Positions 18,973 through 24,006 of a DNA stretch of 64,000 bases are shown one piece after another. Made by a program: the position numbers and the translations under genes. The notes below the pieces were generated by a model. The model had not been told where the DNA came from and ran no database searches. It saw nothing but the letters and a program-made list of their open reading frames with translations. Within the stretch, counting starts at the first letter, position 1. Every line of letters begins with the position of its first letter. This DNA is from Escherichia phage Ec_Makalu_002, in the sequence record MN709127.1, one strand, 5' to 3'.

Positions 18973-21024
18973 TTACATTTTAAATTTATCCGGCATAGCG
19001 TCTACAGACACAAGATCAGCGATAAGCTGACGTAGAGTTGCCTTATCTGCTTTCTTACGTTCGGTTTTAGCTTCGGTAATGAAGCTGGAGAAAGACAGGT
19101 CAGAAGCAGGTTTAACAACACCTTCACGGATGAATGCATCACCGTCCGCGATCATCTCACCAGATTCTTGTAATGCTGCCAGTTCATTTTTGTTCATAAT
19201 ATGTGCCTCGATGTAATAAGTTTCTTGTGAATCCGTCGATGCCGTAGCACGAGTTACCGTATCAAAGGATAACACAACACCGCGAGGAAGTAAAATCTCG
19301 CATTCTTTGTAAGCAAATGCTTTGTTACCTACTGGCAATACAGGGATGTTTTCCGCGCCAGCAATGGAGAAAGCAACATTAGCGCCACCTTCACCGCGAG
19401 ATCCCGCCATAGAATCAACACCAGCAACGGCACTAGCCACGTTTGCATTCCAGCCACCAAAAATATTAGGTGCAAGGGAAGTGCTCACATAGTTTTTAAA
19501 GTAAAACGCTTTTTGCTTACGTGCAGTTTCCCACATTTGCGACCGGAAGTCCATACCACGATACAAGATAGTACCTGGATCAAGTTTAACACCATAGTTA
19601 GCAAATGCGTTATCCAGTGCATCACACATCTTGACCAATTCTTCTGGGTCTGCGATGCCTTCAAACTCTTCCAGCTTACGGTCGGTTAGGAAGTTGTTCA
19701 TATTGATGTATGCTGCATCCGCATATTCGCTCAACACAAAACCTTCCGCGCCAGGCAGATCAAGATCAATATCTGCCATCATTTCACCCATGTTGCTAGC
19801 AATTGCTTCAAACATACCGGAAGCAACATTACGCAGGGCATCGGTTTTAATCTGCGTGATGTGACTACGCAGCATTTCAGCTTTTACATCTGCTGGCATA
19901 GACTGGTCGACGCGATCCATTGCCAGGGCGGTGATCTTGTTTTCGAATACTTCCTCGCTCATGATTTCTTTTAAGCGTTTGATTGATGCTGCGATGACTT
20001 CCGCAGACAACGGATCATATTGATCCTGAACTTTTACCAGTTCGCTTACTGCATATTTTGCATCGGCTTCGCTTTCAAAAATAGTACGCATGAAACCATA
20101 GCGAGTGATAATATCACTTGTCCAGTCATTCAGAGAACGGGCGGTTGAACGTTCTAAGGCTTGACGGTCAATCAGAGTATTAAACTGTTTCTTAGGTTCT
20201 GCTTCGGTGATATCTTCTTCCGGTTTAAGATTAATTTTTTCTGGATGATTCACATAGTCGCTGTTATAGGTCGCTTGAGTTTTCAGCATTTCTTCTTTAG
20301 TCAAACGAGATTTAGCCGCTACGCGTTGTTCTGCTTCCGCGTTTCGTTCTTCTTCCGACACAAGACTAGCCGCATACGCCTCATCTTTAGTCAGAGATTC
20401 ACCAGTAGCCTTAGATACCCAGCGATCACCTAAATCACTTTCTACTTTAGTGAACAGGGATTCATCGAGTTTAATCCCTTTAATCTTATCAATCGCCATC
20501 CCGCGACGTTTGACAACAACTAAAGCGATCTTTTTGCTGGTCATTACTTCCTGCTGGAATACTTCAAACTTCGGTGTACGACGCACCAAACGCTCTATAA
20601 CGCGCTTAACCAGTTCGGTCTTACCTTTCATGCGGGATACGTTAAAACGGAACATAACAGCGTCTAATTGCGCTTTACGGGCTGTTTCCATGACCACATC
20701 AAAAGCACTTGACATAACTGCAATCGGGTTATCTCCTAGACCATTTTTAAGCTGTACAATACGACCGCTTTTGTTCATTTCGCACAGTACAACATGTGCG
20801 GTCTTGTCACCCATACGAATGATTTTAGGTGTTTTGTTGGTGAAGTTACAAAGACGGACAATCACATCTTTATCGCGTGTCTGTACTGCAAAAAGCTGTT
20901 TAGGATTCTGCTTAGGCTTTAAGCACTGTACCGGAGCAATACTGCCAAAGTTTTCTTCCTCTTCCGTCAACAGCCATTTCTCGAAAGATTCAATCATTAG
21001 ATCGTCGATTTCTAAGTTAAACAT
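18973..21024 (-). CDS. alt: Alt ADP-ribosyltransferase
   Basis: 683 aa; LYRGMD, YVSTSLAPNIFGGW, YKECEILLPRG; T4-like position next to gene 54. Confidence 0.85.
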   Translation of the reverse strand: MFNLEIDDLMIESFEKWLLTEEEENFGSIAPVQCLKPKQNPKQLFAVQTRDKDVIVRLCNFTNKTPKIIRMGDKTAHVVLCEMNKSGRIVQLKNGLGDNPIAVMSSAFDVVMETARKAQLDAVMFRFNVSRMKGKTELVKRVIERLVRRTPKFEVFQQEVMTSKKIALVVVKRRGMAIDKIKGIKLDESLFTKVESDLGDRWVSKATGESLTKDEAYAASLVSEEERNAEAEQRVAAKSRLTKEEMLKTQATYNSDYVNHPEKINLKPEEDITEAEPKKQFNTLIDRQALERSTARSLNDWTSDIITRYGFMRTIFESEADAKYAVSELVKVQDQYDPLSAEVIAASIKRLKEIMSEEVFENKITALAMDRVDQSMPADVKAEMLRSHITQIKTDALRNVASGMFEAIASNMGEMMADIDLDLPGAEGFVLSEYADAAYINMNNFLTDRKLEEFEGIADPEELVKMCDALDNAFANYGVKLDPGTILYRGMDFRSQMWETARKQKAFYFKNYVSTSLAPNIFGGWNANVASAVAGVDSMAGSRGEGGANVAFSIAGAENIPVLPVGNKAFAYKECEILLPRGVVLSFDTVTRATASTDSQETYYIEAHIMNKNELAALQESGEMIADGDAFIREGVVKPASDLSFSSFITEAKTERKKADKATLRQLIADLVSVDAMPDKFKM

Positions 21025-21375: not shown

Positions 21376-21556
21376 TTAGAACATTTTTGAAATTAATTCT
21401 GCTTTGATTTCGCAGAGAACATCTAAAGATTTCTCGTCACCCGCTTTTGCTGCTTCTGCTTGCATTTTTGAAATGGCTTCAATGTCAGTGCAATTATAAG
21501 CCGCTTGAACTTTAGCGATTGCGATGATTGCCGATTCGATGGTTAAGTGTTTCATG
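21376..21556 (-). CDS. hypothetical 59-aa protein
   Basis: ATG with GGAGAA RBS; MKHLTIESAIIAIAK... Confidence 0.45.
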
Positions 21557-21587
21557 TTTGATTCTCCTTTCGTTTCGGTATGTGTGC

Positions 21588-21616
21588 AGTATAGGGGATC
21601 GCCGATCCCCTGTCAA
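21588..21616 (-). promoter_or_regulatory. PeSL-like early promoter cassette
   Basis: Minus TTGACA-17-TATACT; spacer is the palindrome aggggatcgccgatcccct (two GATC). Confidence 0.55.
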
Positions 21617-21623
21617 CAACTTT

Positions 21624-22142
21624 TTAGTTATTTTTTAATTGCTCATCTTGCAATAATGCAATCACATGCTGGCGATGTTCTTCCGATTGAGGAACACCGA
21701 AAAAGTTTGTTTTGTAGAAATACTCTAATCGGTCTTCTCGTGTGCTCTCTTCCATCATGATCGCGGGTAGTCCAAGATTTCGGAAACGTCGCTTTTCTGC
21801 TGGCGTAAAATCACTGTAATACAACATAGAATCATCATTACCAGCAATGCTAAACTCATCCTTCATAAAGGAGAATATTGCGTTTAAACGCTGTTTACCG
21901 TCCACGATTTCGATCTCATAGCGAGAGCCATCATCAATCTTAGCCATTGCGATAGCACCAACCGGAAAATCATTAATCAGGTTTTCGATAAACATACGTT
22001 TGTTTTCGGTGTCCCATACCAAAGGACGCTGATAATCTGGGTTCATGTTGATATAGCCATCTTCTAACCACGCCTCATAAACAGAGATGACAAAGTTTTT
22101 AGTATTGGTATAGTAACGGCGTTTAGGCGTTAAACGGTTCAT
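21624..22142 (-). CDS. DUF262 / ParB-like (GmrS N-terminal type) domain protein
   Basis: ATG 22142 with AGGAG RBS; DYQRPLVWD...FPVGAI...IVDGKQRLNAI matches the DUF262 signature; no C-terminal nuclease domain. Confidence 0.6.
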   Translation of the reverse strand: MNRLTPKRRYYTNTKNFVISVYEAWLEDGYINMNPDYQRPLVWDTENKRMFIENLINDFPVGAIAMAKIDDGSRYEIEIVDGKQRLNAIFSFMKDEFSIAGNDDSMLYYSDFTPAEKRRFRNLGLPAIMMEESTREDRLEYFYKTNFFGVPQSEEHRQHVIALLQDEQLKNN

Positions 22143-22143
22143 G

Positions 22144-22476
22144 TTATAGTCTCCTGAATGGATCATCACGTAAATCAATATCTTTTAAGAACTCATCCCA
22201 TGAATGGCGGATAATGTTCTTAATTCTCCAGATAAGCGCAGGGATTGAACGCTCTCCCATCTGGAAGTAAGGATCATATGATCCATATGCCCAATATGCT
22301 ACTACAATTCCACAATCGGCGCAATAATATTCTATTTCACTTGCTGGCGACCAAAGTCCATCAATATGATCACGGATCTTGCTTTCGATGTTATGGCTAT
22401 GGCAATCAGGGCAACGGATGCAATGACCTTGTTTATCGTAATTTGACGTTAGCGAATACTTAAACAATCTCATCAT
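22144..22476 (-). CDS. Zn-ribbon protein (110 aa)
   Basis: CIRCPDC ... CADCG (two CxxC pairs); stop is 1 nt before the next start. Confidence 0.55.
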   Translation of the reverse strand: MMRLFKYSLTSNYDKQGHCIRCPDCHSHNIESKIRDHIDGLWSPASEIEYYCADCGIVVAYWAYGSYDPYFQMGERSIPALIWRIKNIIRHSWDEFLKDIDLRDDPFRRL

Positions 22477-23189
22477 AGATCCTTATTGGCTTCAAATACT
22501 GCCTTTGCGAATCCTCGCGGGGTAAGTGACCTGATAGTCTTTGTTCTGGTTCCTTTCCCGCCTAGCTTAGAATGCTGTTTACTGTACCCTTTATTAATCT
22601 GCAACGGTTTCTTTTCTGGCATTATAAAGCCTTGTCCGGTCCATAAGCAAGTCTTTTTCGGGTACATATCACGGGCGGCAATATACTCAGGAAACGTAGG
22701 ATGCTTATCATCTTCCGGCAAATAACCGCCATATTCCCACGGATGGAACATGTAATCAGGCTTACGCCACATGCTAGAGATAACGCTTACAGGATTCTCT
22801 ATCATGTAGGGAACTCCTAGCCATTCACCCAAATAAGCGGTTATTTTAGCTGCCCTTACATCATGAACTTGAATTAATGGTCCTTGTTCTCGTTTCTTTC
22901 GTTCAAAGTGCGCAGCGCCACTAACAGCTAAATTGGTGCATGGTGGGAATGCAAAGATAATATCCGGTTTCCCCCATTCAAGGTCCATTGCTCTTTCCAG
23001 CCAATTTAAATCAATCCATGTGTTTACATATGTAATGTTTGGATGTTCAAATCGGGTATTATATTTTTTGTATGTACCGTGGTCGCCATCGTCAGCATTA
23101 AAGCAGATCACCTTATGACCTGCTTTAGCCCATTCTAACCCCATTATCCCCGATCCGTCAAAGTTGCAGAATATTAATTTTTGTTTCAT
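22473..23189 (-). CDS. compact C5-cytosine methyltransferase-like protein
   Basis: Motif I-like NFDGSGIMG, motif IV-like FAFPPCTNLAVSGA (PC with catalytic Cys), motif VI-like MIENPV, C-terminal RSLTPRGFAKA; only 238 aa. Confidence 0.5.
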   Translation of the reverse strand: MKQKLIFCNFDGSGIMGLEWAKAGHKVICFNADDGDHGTYKKYNTRFEHPNITYVNTWIDLNWLERAMDLEWGKPDIIFAFPPCTNLAVSGAAHFERKKREQGPLIQVHDVRAAKITAYLGEWLGVPYMIENPVSVISSMWRKPDYMFHPWEYGGYLPEDDKHPTFPEYIAARDMYPKKTCLWTGQGFIMPEKKPLQINKGYSKQHSKLGGKGTRTKTIRSLTPRGFAKAVFEANKDL

Positions 23190-23431
23190 ATACGCCCCTT
23201 TAACCCAACACAGATTTTAGAAGGTTCTTTGCCGTGCCACATTAAGTAAATTCCGTTAATGCGTCCTTGTTTTGTATATGATTCTTTTCTGATCTTCTTA
23301 TAGTGTCGTGCTTCCTCAGCCGATTGTTTAGAATGTCGATCATAAAGGAAGAGGAACAAAGGCCAACCATTAGCGGCCTTAATGCAGTTATTCAAAAATT
23401 CCTTATTTCGTTTAATTAATTTTCTTTTCAC
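23186..23431 (-). CDS. hypothetical basic protein (81 aa)
   Basis: Track ORF with overlapping stop/start in the operon. Confidence 0.5.
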   Translation of the reverse strand: MKRKLIKRNKEFLNNCIKAANGWPLFLFLYDRHSKQSAEEARHYKKIRKESYTKQGRINGIYLMWHGKEPSKICVGLKGRI

Positions 23432-23679
23432 GCTGCCCCCATTGGTTTGATAGTAACAGAATCTAAAAGACCTTTGTTAGCCAGTTCGCGGCAAGTTTTC
23501 AGATCCGCAACTTCCCAGCCAGCCGCAATAAGGTTATCAATGAGGCTGTTAGCAACTTCTTCGCTCATGAAAGAGCACTGTTTGCCGATGGTGTAGCGTA
23601 CACGCTGTAATTTCAGTTTACGGAAGCCTTTAACGTTCAGGTCTTTAGCGATTTTCTTTGCGGTTTCGATGTTAGCCAT
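23428..23679 (-). CDS. hypothetical protein (83 aa), first gene of the operon
   Basis: Track ORF; promoter cassette immediately upstream. Confidence 0.55.
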   Translation of the reverse strand: MANIETAKKIAKDLNVKGFRKLKLQRVRYTIGKQCSFMSEEVANSLIDNLIAAGWEVADLKTCRELANKGLLDSVTIKPMGAA

Positions 23680-23719
23680 TGTTTGATTCTCCTAAGTGGT
23701 ATCTCGTCTTGATGGTTGT

Positions 23720-23748
23720 ATTGTAGGGGAGTTATCCTCCCCTGTCAA
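23720..23748 (-). promoter_or_regulatory. PeSL-like early promoter for operon 23679..21624
   Basis: Minus TTGACA-17-TACAAT; palindrome aggggagttatcctcccct in the spacer. Confidence 0.5.
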
Positions 23749-23762
23749 CACTTTTTATAAAA

Positions 23763-23930
23763 TTATTTGTTAATTTCTGGTGCGTTGCTAGGATAGTAAC
23801 CTTCTTTAACTCCGAGGTATTTCGCAACCATCCCTACAATCTTCTGTGCTACTACAATGTCAAATTTCAGATAATCTTCGCCGTGGGTTTCAATGATATA
23901 TGCTTCACATGCTGCTTTAGTCTCGAACAT
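23763..23930 (-). CDS. small protein (55 aa), copy 1 of a duplicated gene
   Basis: MFETKAACEAYIIETHGEDYLKFDIVVAQKIVGMVAKYLGVKEGYYPSNAPEINK; near-identical to 27046..27213. Confidence 0.55.
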   Translation of the reverse strand: MFETKAACEAYIIETHGEDYLKFDIVVAQKIVGMVAKYLGVKEGYYPSNAPEINK

Positions 23931-23963
23931 TTTGATTCTCCTATTTCGTTTCGGTATGTGTGT

Positions 23964-23992
23964 ATTATAGGGGATCTCCCGATCCCCGTCAA
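23964..23992 (-). promoter_or_regulatory. PeSL-like early promoter cassette
   Basis: Minus TTGACG-17-TATAAT; palindrome ggggatctcccgatcccc. Confidence 0.55.
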
Positions 23993-24006
23993 CAACTTTT
24001 TTAAAA

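What the first reader, a model, noticed from the sequence alone, without database searches (positions are those of the whole stretch)
21588..23748. Five-gene early operon: DUF262/ParB-like, Zn-ribbon, compact C5-methyltransferase-like and two unknown proteins
Genes 23679..21624 on the minus strand are packed with overlapping or near-adjacent stops and starts behind a single promoter cassette, unlike their neighbours, which each carry their own. The DUF262 signature (DYQRPLVW ... IVDGKQRL) is the N-terminal domain type of GmrSD-class Type IV restriction enzymes, here without a nuclease domain. The 238-aa protein has PC and ENP motifs of C5-cytosine methyltransferases but is too short for a normal target-recognition domain. 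I know of no T4 counterpart. Possible roles are DNA modification with a ParB-like partner, or a decoy against host Type IV restriction. The window shows no alc gene between rnlA and pseT, which weakly fits unmodified-cytosine DNA on which a C5-methyltransferase would make sense.
Basis: partly seen in the sequence, partly recalled or inferred. Interest (0 to 1): 0.8.

Follow-up and report, generated by a model that had tools for sequence, protein, structure and literature searches.

The report
RB49-type early accessory-gene cassette
This is a real five-gene early transcription unit of an RB49-like (Krischvirus) coliphage that strings together independently mobile accessory genes, including a compact cytosine-C5 DNA methyltransferase of a family already shown to be active and a nuclease-less mini DUF262/ParB-like protein of unknown role; it is not a co-evolved five-part system.

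Summary
Five intact minus-strand genes (83, 81, 238, 110 and 172 aa) have overlapping or abutting stops and starts. They lie between two strong promoter/stem-loop cassettes (PeSLs), while each neighbouring gene has its own. The window is a Krischvirus (99.9% identical to Ec_Makalu_003), and the genes are RB49 ORFs 190, 189.1, 189, 188 and 187.

The domain calls are right. The 238-aa protein belongs to phrog_757. It is 56% identical over its full length to the 711-bp Dcm-like gene of phage KarlJaspers. The near-identical K42 enzyme makes 5mC and triggers retron Ec86, and all four residues mutated in that study are conserved here. Its model looks most like DNMT3A/B, the C5 methyltransferases with the smallest target-recognition domain.

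The 172-aa protein is a complete, minimal DUF262/ParB-Srx NTP-binding domain. It has no nuclease and belongs to a large, mostly viral clade.

The "system" reading fails. Each gene has its own phyletic distribution. None of 53 non-Krischvirus DUF262 loci and none of 79 non-Krischvirus methyltransferase loci carries any of the other four genes nearby. The cassette's content also varies within Krischvirus.

Overall this is an ordinary hyperplastic-region cassette. The only open question is what the mini-DUF262 does.

The parts
23720..23748 (-). PeSL promoter of the unit: TTGACA, 17 nt containing the GGGGAGGATAACTCCCC stem-loop, TACAAT. The SD AGGAG and the ATG of gene 1 follow about 40 nt downstream.
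   Evidence: PeSL function as promoter plus terminator shown for RB49 in PMC2839356
23428..23679 (-). Gene 1, 83 aa (RB49p190; phrog_14908), found only in Krischvirus. Function unknown. Residues 43-75 form a PPR-like helical hairpin.
   Evidence: pN/pS 0.06
23186..23431 (-). Gene 2, 81 aa, GTG start overlapping the stop of gene 1 (RB49p189.1; phrog_7065). Basic protein of unknown function. Precisely absent in one Krischvirus-like UViG.
   Evidence: pN/pS 0.25
22473..23189 (-). Gene 3, 238 aa (RB49p189; phrog_757): compact Dcm-like C5-cytosine DNA methyltransferase. Motif I FDGSG 10-14, catalytic PPC 82-84, ENP 131-133, KK 178-179, C-terminal IRSLTPRGFA.
   Evidence: homologue biochemistry in bioRxiv 10.1101/2023.08.16.553469
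22144..22476 (-). Gene 4, 110 aa (RB49p188; phrog_2993): CxxC...CxxC zinc-ribbon protein of unknown function. Homologues in 9g-like, JenP1-like and Felixounavirus phages.
   Evidence: pN/pS 0.11
21624..22142 (-). Gene 5, 172 aa (RB49p187; phrog_1583): minimal single-domain DUF262/ParB-Srx NTP-binding protein (YQR..VW 37-43, DGKQR 81-85, NFFGVPQSEEH 146-156). No nuclease domain.
21588..21616 (-). Next PeSL: TTGACA, GGGGATCGGCGATCCCC stem-loop, TATACT. It is the likely terminator of the five-gene unit and the promoter of the following 59-aa gene.
   Evidence: PMC2839356. Tandemly duplicated in phage SAP.

Best explanation
The locus is one PeSL-bounded early transcription unit in the hyperplastic, non-essential region of an RB49-type phage. 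Host sigma-70 RNA polymerase starts at the PeSL at 23748-23720. It reads five translationally coupled genes and is attenuated at the stem-loop of the next PeSL (21616-21588). This is inferred from the sequence and from published PeSL reporter assays.

The five genes are independent accessory modules collected by recombination. They are not subunits of one machine.

Gene 3 is an orphan, SAM-dependent C5-cytosine DNA methyltransferase with a DNMT3-like minimal target-recognition region. Early in infection it most likely methylates a sparse site class on replicating phage DNA, and incidentally on host DNA. The site may be CCWGG-like, as proposed for its Drexlerviridae homologue. Methylation would block cytosine-sensitive restriction enzymes, at the cost of exposing the phage to 5mC sensors such as retron Ec86. 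Fold, catalytic residues and homology are shown here. Activity, target site and benefit in this phage are inferred.

Gene 5 is a self-contained DUF262/ParB-Srx NTP-binding and probably NTP-hydrolysing switch domain. It acts on its own, without a nuclease or a DNA-binding domain. The residues equivalent to BrxU Q101/R102, which are needed for hydrolysis, are invariant. Its target is unknown.

Genes 1, 2 and 4 are small accessory proteins of unknown function.
For: Identity of the locus: 99.9% to Ec_Makalu_003 and about 97.7% to RB49 ORFs 187-190.

Transcription-unit anatomy. PeSLs are known promoter/terminator cassettes of RB49 hyperplastic regions (PMC2839356).

Methyltransferase:
- phrog_757 E=2e-90.
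- 7317 homologous clusters, all about 230 aa.
- 56% identity over the full length to KarlJaspers bas06_0055 (711 bp), with C82/E128/K175/K176 matching C84/E131/K178/K179 here.
- K42 Dcm produces 5mC on msDNA, and the quadruple mutant does not.
- The AF2 model has pLDDT 91.9.

DUF262:
- PF03235 at 73 bits.
- AF2 pLDDT 94.6.
- Foldseek hits to PadC, Noc, ParB-CDP and BrxU.
- The family profile hits BrxU 7p9k, aligning QR..VW, DGQQR and FxxxN..G.
- All of the 150 best representatives are under 345 aa, so none is the size of a full-length GmrSD-type enzyme (BrxU is 587 aa).
- Q38, R39, W43, D81, G82, K83, Q84, N146, G149, Q152 and H156 are invariant.

Independence of the genes:
- Different phyletic ranges.
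- 0 of 53 DUF262 loci and 0 of 79 methyltransferase loci outside Krischvirus carry any other member.
- No conserved neighbour of DUF262, and no recurrent Zn-ribbon partner of the methyltransferase.
- An extra 59-aa gene is inserted in kaaroe and FL04, and gene 2 is deleted in L019.

All five genes are under purifying selection.
Against: No transcript data were available, so the single-operon reading rests on consensus scans and on published behaviour of other PeSLs.

A 10/12 promoter-like match lies inside the start of gene 3 (23161-23132).

The recognition site of this family has not been determined rigorously. CCWGG was assumed by analogy with host Dcm and supported only by msDNA mutants.

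HPLC-MS of TB34 virion DNA detected no modified nucleoside. Methylation of phage DNA is therefore sparse or absent.

CCWGG is itself strongly avoided in the window (28 against 72 expected), which would be unnecessary if those sites were reliably protected.

Tight translational coupling of genes 3-4-5, kept across Krischvirus, would also fit some functional cooperation.
Confidence: 0.65

Rival explanations
1. The mini-DUF262 is a counter-defence protein. It would act as a nuclease-less mimic of the N-terminal NTP-switch domain of DUF262-containing host defences (GmrSD/BrxU, SspE, Menshen NsnA, PD-T4-2, HEC-05/06), poisoning their dimer/monomer cycle or competing for their ligand. In Krischvirus it would offset the 5mC liability created by the neighbouring methyltransferase.
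For: It keeps the full nucleotide-switch motif set of BrxU but no nuclease. Its best PADLOC matches are defence proteins: NsnA at 1e-20 and PD-T4-2_A at 5e-12. BrxU needs cycles of dimerisation and ATP-driven monomerisation, and it cleaves 5mC DNA (PMC8565348; PMC13390438). In temperate phages the gene sits in early accessory regions next to anti-RecBCD and recombination genes.
Against: There is no experimental support. It does not co-occur with the methyltransferase outside Krischvirus. It is common in P22-like and lambdoid prophages whose DNA is not expected to attract Type IV enzymes. Sequence identity to any host DUF262 domain is very low: the profile E-value against BrxU is only 7.5e-4.
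Confidence: 0.12
2. The mini-DUF262 is itself an enzyme acting on nucleic acid or nucleotides. It could be an Osa-like ParB/Srx NTPase/DNase, or a phage-borne exclusion factor against competing phages or plasmids. It would work alone or with a partner encoded elsewhere.
For: The ParB/Srx fold includes single-domain proteins of similar size. Osa (4ovb) and sulfiredoxin appear in the fold hits. The invariant polar cluster N146...Q152-S-E-E-H156 looks catalytic rather than structural. Prophage-borne copies sit where exclusion morons are often found.
Against: The Osa and sulfiredoxin matches are weak (E 0.3-0.7, TM about 0.3). No conserved partner gene was found in 53 loci. No nuclease motif was recognised by Pfam, NCBIfam or PADLOC.
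Confidence: 0.15
3. One reading: the five genes form one DNA-modification system, in which the ParB-like protein and/or the zinc ribbon supplies the DNA targeting that the TRD-poor methyltransferase lacks.
For: Genes 3-4-5 are translationally coupled and kept together in nearly all Krischvirus genomes. The methyltransferase has only about 30-40 residues where a TRD would be. ParB-like domains fused to DNA methyltransferases exist in other phages (my own knowledge, not tested here).
Against: The same compact methyltransferase occurs alone in about 1500 phage genomes. Its solitary Drexlerviridae homologue is active when expressed by itself. 0 of 79 methyltransferase loci have a DUF262 or a homologous Zn ribbon, and only 1 of 79 (Krischvirus itself) has any downstream CxxC ORF. 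A 59-aa gene is inserted between genes 4 and 5 in kaaroe and FL04.
Confidence: 0.06
4. The methyltransferase-like protein is the missing entry point of the unexplained 5-hmC / glucosyl-methyl-C modification reported for Krischvirus SAP. It would act as a C5-cytosine enzyme using a non-methyl one-carbon donor.
Against: The five coding sequences are identical in SAP and in the unmodified TB34. The homologous K42 enzyme yields plain 5mC. A post-replicative, site-specific enzyme cannot easily give complete replacement of cytosine. The PeSL duplication drives the next gene, not this cassette. Carry-over of T-even DNA in the SAP preparation has not been excluded (my inference).
Confidence: 0.03

Closest known systems
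Phage K42 / KarlJaspers (Bas06) Dcm-like C5-cytosine methyltransferase (bas06_0055), the trigger of retron Ec86 (Retron-Eco1)
   Same: Same length class (236 against 238 aa), 56% identity end to end, and the same FDGSG, PPC, ENP and KK residues. Both belong to the family annotated 'DNA methyltransferase' (phrog_757). Both are orphan early genes.
   Different: The genomic setting differs: a T1-like siphovirus against a T4-like myovirus. In Krischvirus the gene is embedded in a polycistronic PeSL cassette. Activity, target site and retron triggering have not been shown for the Krischvirus protein.
DNMT3A/DNMT3B catalytic domains and bacterial C5 methyltransferases (M.HhaI, M.HaeIII, prophage methyltransferase 3g7u)
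   Different: Sequence identity is only 12-19%. Pfam PF00145 is not reached. The protein is about 90-100 residues shorter than M.HhaI. Nothing is known about its oligomeric state or how it reads DNA.
GmrSD / BrxU family Type IV restriction enzymes (DUF262 + DUF1524)
   Same: The N-terminal NTP-binding DUF262 domain shares the QR..VW, R-hFxx(S/E), DG(Q/K)QR and FxxxN..G motifs.
   Different: There is no DUF1524/HNH nuclease in the protein or next to it. The stretch between DGKQR and the last motif is about 60 residues, against about 140 in BrxU. The gene is encoded by phages rather than by defence islands.
ParB/Srx-fold nucleotide switches (ParB, Noc, KorB, PadC) and Osa
   Same: Same core fold: Foldseek hits PadC at 4e-4 and ParB-CDP at 1.3e-3, TM 0.42-0.47. 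Like PadC and Osa, it is a small protein dominated by this one domain.
   Different: It lacks the HTH DNA-binding and C-terminal dimerisation domains of ParB, Noc and KorB. It carries DUF262-type rather than GERR-type motifs. Nucleotide preference is unknown.
PeSL (promoter-early stem-loop) cassettes of RB49/phi1 hyperplastic regions (Arbiol et al. 2010, PMC2839356)
   Same: Same genome, same region and same motif. ORF189.1 (gene 2) was added to the RB49 annotation in that paper.
   Different: Most PeSL cassettes carry one gene. This one carries five (six in kaaroe and FL04).

Membership tests
C5-cytosine DNA methyltransferase (functional class) | Motif I FxGxG (SAM binding) | tested here: met
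   FDGSG at 10-14. F10, G12, S13 and G14 are nearly invariant in 78 family members.
C5-cytosine DNA methyltransferase (functional class) | Motif IV Pro-Cys with the catalytic cysteine | tested here: met
   P82, P83 and C84 are invariant. C84 aligns with C82 of K42/KarlJaspers Dcm.
C5-cytosine DNA methyltransferase (functional class) | Motif VI ENV-type glutamate | tested here: met
   E131, N132 and P133 are invariant. E131 aligns with E128 of K42 Dcm.
C5-cytosine DNA methyltransferase (functional class) | C5-methyltransferase fold | tested here: met
C5-cytosine DNA methyltransferase (functional class) | Sizeable target-recognition domain between motifs VIII and IX | tested here: not met
   Only about 30-40 mostly coil residues (about 186-215) lie between the KKTCLWTG strand and the IRSLTPRGFA helix. 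The protein is 238 aa against 327 for M.HhaI. DNMT3 enzymes show that this feature is not obligatory.
C5-cytosine DNA methyltransferase (functional class) | Formation of 5-methylcytosine in DNA by this protein | not testable with these tools
   Shown only for the 56%-identical family member of phage K42. TB34 virion DNA showed no detectable modified nucleoside by HPLC-MS.
Pfam PF00145 DNA_methylase | Score at or above the gathering threshold (22 bits) | tested here: not met
   13.9 bits, E=0.037, covering only residues 10-100 against profile positions 7-87. Three of the 120 listed homologues (P0004, P0018, P0030) carry a precomputed PF00145 hit.
PHROG 757 'DNA methyltransferase' (compact phage Dcm-like family) | Full-length profile match | tested here: met
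   E=2.1e-90, residues 1-237 against profile 12-220 of 247. 1587 phage records hold a homologue.
Pfam PF03235 GmrSD_N (DUF262) | Score at or above the gathering threshold, with the QR..W and DGQQR motifs | tested here: met
   73.2 bits against 33.2. Y37, Q38, R39...W43 and D81, G82, K83, Q84, R85 are present. Q38, R39, W43 and D81-Q84 are invariant, and Y37 and R85 are at least 90% conserved. The third motif residue is K instead of Q.
GmrSD-type Type IV restriction enzyme | DUF1524/HNH nuclease domain fused to, or encoded next to, the DUF262 domain | tested here: not met
   The protein ends 16 residues after the last DUF262 motif. No nuclease hit in Pfam, NCBIfam or PADLOC. The next gene is a 59-aa ORF behind its own promoter. 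All of the 150 closest representatives are under 345 aa, too short for a fused GmrSD-type enzyme (BrxU is 587 aa).
ParB-type CTPase DNA clamp | HTH DNA-binding domain and C-terminal dimerisation domain after the NTP-binding domain | tested here: not met
   The 172-aa model consists of the ParB/Srx core plus two helices. Fold matches cover only the N-terminal domain of ParB and Noc.
Multi-gene functional system (co-evolving operon) | Conserved co-occurrence of the components across lineages | tested here: not met
   0 of 53 non-Krischvirus DUF262 loci (10 kb each side) and 0 of 79 non-Krischvirus methyltransferase loci (6 kb each side) contain any other member. Phyletic ranges differ: 56, 172, 1587, 334 and 324 records.
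PeSL cassette (RB49/phi1) | Strong sigma-70 promoter with a G/C stem-loop between or over the hexamers, followed by an SD and a start codon, flanking non-essential genes | tested here: met
   23748-23720 and 21616-21588 match the motif, and five further copies occur in the window. 11/12 hexamer matches. Defined in PMC2839356.

The most novel reading that the evidence does not exclude
The nuclease-less mini-DUF262 (172 aa) is the founding member of a widespread phage counter-defence family. It would be an NTP-switch mimic that disables DUF262-containing host immune proteins (GmrSD/BrxU, SspE, Menshen NsnA, PD-T4-2). In Krischvirus it would be kept beside the Dcm-like methyltransferase because 5mC makes the phage a Type IV target.
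Probability: 0.12. Interest if true: 0.65.

Novelty: new member of a known kind. Interest (0 to 1): 0.3.

Why it matters
Practically, this corrects an over-reading. The cassette should be annotated as independent accessory genes: an orphan Dcm-like C5 methyltransferase, a DUF262 domain protein, a zinc-ribbon protein and two unknowns. It should not be annotated as a novel modification system.

Two points have some value.

First, RB49-like phages carry a member of the methyltransferase family that triggers retron Ec86. This predicts that Krischvirus infection of retron-bearing hosts such as E. coli B/BL21 may be methyltransferase-dependent. It also predicts sparse 5mC on otherwise unmodified DNA.

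Second, the compact, nuclease-free DUF262 clade is uncharacterised. It comprises 2869 clusters at E<=0.001 in the word-indexed search, and all 150 best representatives are under 345 aa. It occurs in T4-like, P22-like and lambdoid phages. It is a tractable single-gene target for anti-defence or exclusion screens.

Tried and rejected
- **PDB sequence searches.** Single-sequence and profile searches for the methyltransferase found nothing. The single-sequence search for DUF262 gave only spurious sliding-clamp hits.
- **NCBIfam.** Nothing useful for any of the five proteins.
- **Linkage in other phages.** I tested whether the small genes next to the methyltransferase in SSE121 are homologues of genes 1, 2 or 4. 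They are not. I tested whether the roughly 110-aa gene upstream of DUF262 in RB43 and Matisse is the Zn ribbon. It is not.
- **Conserved partners.** I looked for a conserved neighbour of mini-DUF262 in 53 viral loci. All neighbours are lineage-specific. I looked for any CxxC ORF beside the methyltransferase in 79 loci and found none recurring.
- **SAP versus TB34.** I asked whether the difference between the modified and unmodified phage maps to the cassette. The five coding sequences are identical. The only differences are a PeSL duplication downstream and two T-run indels upstream.
- **Methylation-decay signature.** I looked for CCWGG loss with CTWGG gain. CCWGG is depleted, but CTTGG/CCAAG is depleted even more, so the pattern reads as general CCNGG/CCWWGG restriction avoidance. 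It says nothing about the methyltransferase's specificity.
- **Second DUF262 copy in FL04.** I checked whether the 172-aa FL04 ORF upstream is one. It is not.
- **N-terminal extension.** The extension of the 260-300-aa DUF262 relatives gave only weak SH3/OB hints.
- **Literature.** No paper characterising a stand-alone phage DUF262 was found.
Full report
**What is there**

The window is a Krischvirus genome segment. Positions 21400-24000 are 99.9% identical to Escherichia phage Ec_Makalu_003 and about 97.7% identical to RB49. Fifty-five of 63 matching phage records cover the region almost completely.

The five minus-strand ORFs are:
- 23679-23428 (83 aa)
- 23431-23186 (81 aa, GTG start)
- 23189-22473 (238 aa)
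- 22476-22144 (110 aa)
- 22142-21624 (172 aa)

They correspond to RB49p190, p189.1, p189, p188 and p187. Their junctions are GTGA, ATGA and ATGA overlaps, then TAA-C-ATG. Each start has a purine-rich Shine-Dalgarno-like run.

A consensus scan finds 11/12 sigma-70 promoters at 23748-23720 and 21616-21588, each with a GGGG...CCCC stem-loop between the hexamers. Only 9-10/12 matches lie inside the unit. Every neighbouring small gene has its own 11/12 promoter.

These elements are the PeSLs (promoter-early stem-loops) described for the hyperplastic regions of RB49 and phi1. There they act as strong promoters and as terminators, and they mediate modular shuffling (PMC2839356).

All five ORFs are intact in the 5-7 Krischvirus genomes compared per gene, with pN/pS of 0.05-0.25. 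This is a genuine, maintained, five-gene early cassette.

**The 238-aa protein**

Pfam's C5 methylase model is only touched (E=0.037, 13.9 bits against a cutoff of 22, N-terminal half only). No PDB chain is found by sequence, even with a 78-member family profile.

The protein nevertheless belongs firmly to PHROG 757 "DNA methyltransferase" (E=2e-90). That is a very large family of roughly 230-aa proteins: 7317 clusters and 1587 phage records, spanning T1-like, Dhillonvirus, rV5-like, Webervirus and other phages.

It is 56% identical over its whole length to bas06_0055 of phage KarlJaspers, a 711-bp "Dcm-like C5 cytosine methyltransferase". A preprint on retron Ec86 (bioRxiv 10.1101/2023.08.16.553469) studied the 711-bp dcm gene of phage K42, whose genome is 95.4% identical to KarlJaspers. 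It reports that:
- escaper phages lose this gene;
- expressing it alone triggers the retron;
- it raises 5mC on msDNA by LC-MS;
- a C82A/E128A/K175A/K176A mutant is inactive.

Those four residues align with C84, E131, K178 and K179 here. C84, E131 and K178 are invariant in the family, as is the rest of the PPC and ENP motifs, and the motif I residues F10, G12, S13 and G14 are nearly invariant.

The AlphaFold model is confident (pLDDT 91.9). Its best structural matches are:
- M.HhaI (10.8), DNMT1, M.MpeI and M.HaeIII.

Only about 30-40 largely non-regular residues separate the KKTCLWTG strand from the C-terminal IRSLTPRGFA helix. DNMT3 and the K42 enzyme show that such compact forms work.

The correct start is the ATG at 23189. 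The shorter start used in some annotations (and the GeneMark alternative) would remove motif I.

**The 172-aa protein**

It matches PF03235 (GmrSD_N/DUF262) at 73 bits. In PADLOC it matches the DUF262-bearing defence proteins NsnA and PD-T4-2_A.

It is not a truncated GmrSD. Close full-length relatives of 160-190 aa occur in RB43, Slopekvirus, Karamvirus, Pectobacterium and Yersinia T4-like phages, in P22-like phages, and in Salmonella lambdoid prophages just after recET.

An exhaustive HMMER scan of 1.8 billion representatives returned 150 best hits, all shorter than 345 aa. The DUF262 core lies at the C-terminal end in nearly all of them, either alone or behind an N-terminal extension of roughly 50-200 aa (mostly about 100-130). 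None is long enough to be a fused GmrSD-type enzyme.

Invariant residues are Q38, R39, W43, D81, G82, K83, Q84, F142, N146, G149, Q152 and H156. A family profile aligns QR..VW, DGKQR and FxxxNFxG with BrxU's QREFVW, DGQQR and FIRMNSGG. In BrxU, Q101 and R102 of DGQQR are needed for NTP hydrolysis, and nucleotide binding switches the enzyme from dimer to monomer (PMC8565348). Their equivalents here are Q84, which is invariant, and R85, which is at least 90% conserved.

The model (pLDDT 94.6) matches PadC, Noc, ParB-CDP and BrxU (Foldseek E 4e-4 to 5e-3, TM 0.42-0.50). Osa and sulfiredoxin appear only weakly.

So this is a complete, minimal ParB/Srx-type NTP-binding domain that is probably hydrolytically competent. 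It has no nuclease, no HTH and no conserved partner gene. I found no paper that characterises a stand-alone phage DUF262.

**The three small proteins**

- The 83-aa protein occurs only in Krischvirus (56 records). It has one PPR-like helical hairpin and a marginal PADLOC hit to a DRT reverse-transcriptase C-terminal region.
- The 81-aa basic protein (phrog_7065) also occurs in Dhakavirus, Karamvirus and T5-like phages.
- The 110-aa CxxC...CxxC zinc ribbon (phrog_2993) also occurs in 9g-like, JenP1-like and Felixounavirus phages.

None can be assigned a function.

**Is it a system?**

No evidence supports that, and several tests go against it.
- The five genes have five different phyletic distributions: 56, 172, 1587, 334 and 324 phage records.
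- Among 55 IMG/VR loci with a mini-DUF262 (10 kb each side), only the two Krischvirus loci contain the methyltransferase, the Zn ribbon or genes 1 and 2.
- Among 80 loci with the methyltransferase (6 kb each side), only the Krischvirus locus contains any of the other four.
- Only that locus has a downstream CxxC ORF.
- Within Krischvirus the cassette is itself modular. Kaaroe and FL04 carry an extra 59-aa gene between the Zn ribbon and DUF262. A metagenomic relative lacks gene 2 and has a recombined gene 1, with the methyltransferase starting at the GTG that overlaps gene 1's stop.

This is what PeSL-mediated shuffling of independent modules predicts.

**DNA modification background**

RB49's annotation has pseT, pseT.2, pseT.3 and rnlA with no alc.

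The window shows extreme restriction-site avoidance:

| Site | Observed | Expected |
|---|---|---|
| GAATTC | 0 | 18 |
| GGATCC | 0 | 13 |
| AAGCTT | 0 | 14 |
| TCCGGA | 0 | 25 |
| CCWGG | 28 | 72 |

This is typical of unmodified DNA.

A 2026 study found no modified nucleoside in Krischvirus TB34 DNA. Puzzlingly, it found fully modified cytosines in SAP, which is 99.96% identical, with no known pathway (PMC13390438).

I compared the two phages at this locus. The five coding sequences are identical. The differences are a tandem duplication of the PeSL just downstream of the DUF262 gene and two T-run length changes in upstream promoters. The cassette therefore offers no explanation for that puzzle.

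The TB34 result also implies that any methylation by gene 3 is sparse. That fits a site of about 5 bp, not a CpG-like site.

**Verdict**

The best explanation is a PeSL-bounded early cassette of independent accessory genes. One member is an orphan Dcm-like C5 methyltransferase. Its likely role is anti-restriction, and its family is a known trigger of retron Ec86. Another member is an uncharacterised minimal DUF262 NTP-switch protein.

Novelty is low for the locus as a whole, which is a known genome and a known, annotated enzyme family. Novelty is moderate only for the mini-DUF262 clade. Its most interesting unexcluded reading is a mimic that disables DUF262-containing host defences. I put that at roughly 0.12.

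Noticed in passing
L008:600-860 (phage SAP OZ034687.1, equivalent to window ~21560-21640): The roughly 80-bp PeSL between the DUF262 gene and the next 59-aa gene is tandemly duplicated in SAP (reported to have hmC/glucosyl-methyl-C DNA) but single in TB34 (unmodified) and in the window. Two T-run indels in upstream PeSL promoters are the only other differences in 3.7 kb.
   Followed up: partly
window 1-64000: Very strong avoidance of Type II restriction sites. Observed against expected: GAATTC 0/18, GGATCC 0/13, AAGCTT 0/14, TCCGGA 0/25, GGCC 29/72. Among 5-mers, CCAAG/CTTGG, CCWGG and CCSGG are among the most depleted. This is consistent with unmodified-cytosine DNA under restriction pressure.
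   Followed up: partly
window 23428-23679 (-), residues 43-75 of the 83-aa protein: This segment resembles a single pentatricopeptide-like helical hairpin. The hits are to designer PPR proteins, and their E-values are inflated by repeats. PADLOC also gives E=2.6e-5 to residues 722-785 of the defence reverse transcriptase model RT_UG35.
   Followed up: no
L017:1043-1222 and L018:1042-1221 (phages kaaroe, FL04): An extra 59-aa ORF (MITPQLHGKEICDLTWEEL...) is inserted with overlapping stops and starts between the Zn-ribbon and DUF262 genes, making a six-gene cassette in some Krischviruses.
   Followed up: partly
L019:8519-8960 (IMG/VR UViG_3300045988_033703): In this Krischvirus-like contig the PeSL and the 5' third of gene 1 are replaced by other sequence, and gene 2 is precisely absent. 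The methyltransferase then starts at the GTG overlapping the stop of the gene-1 remnant. This suggests recombination at the short GTGAAA/ATGAAA junction repeats.
   Followed up: partly
P0127, P0157, P0197 and about 100 others; loci L015, L016: The closest relatives of the mini-DUF262 include a second architecture of 260-300 aa, with an N-terminal extension of about 100-130 aa. It gives only weak SH3/OB-like hints. It is found on large phage-like contigs with no annotated neighbours.
   Followed up: partly
L012:2427-6516 (Salmonella prophage) and L007 (P22-like UPF_BP1): In temperate phages the mini-DUF262 sits in the early-left accessory region, directly after recE/recT or erf/abc2 and before xis/int. 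Counter-defence and exclusion genes typically lie there.
   Followed up: no
window 23132-23161 (-): A 10/12 sigma-70-like match (TTGACG, 18 nt, TAGAAT) lies inside the first 60 nt of the methyltransferase gene. It could be chance or a weak internal promoter for genes 3-5.
   Followed up: no
window 18973-21024 (-): The 683-aa ORF immediately downstream of the small-gene array corresponds to the RB49 Alt-like ADP-ribosyltransferase. This places the cassette in the alt-proximal hyperplastic region.
   Followed up: no
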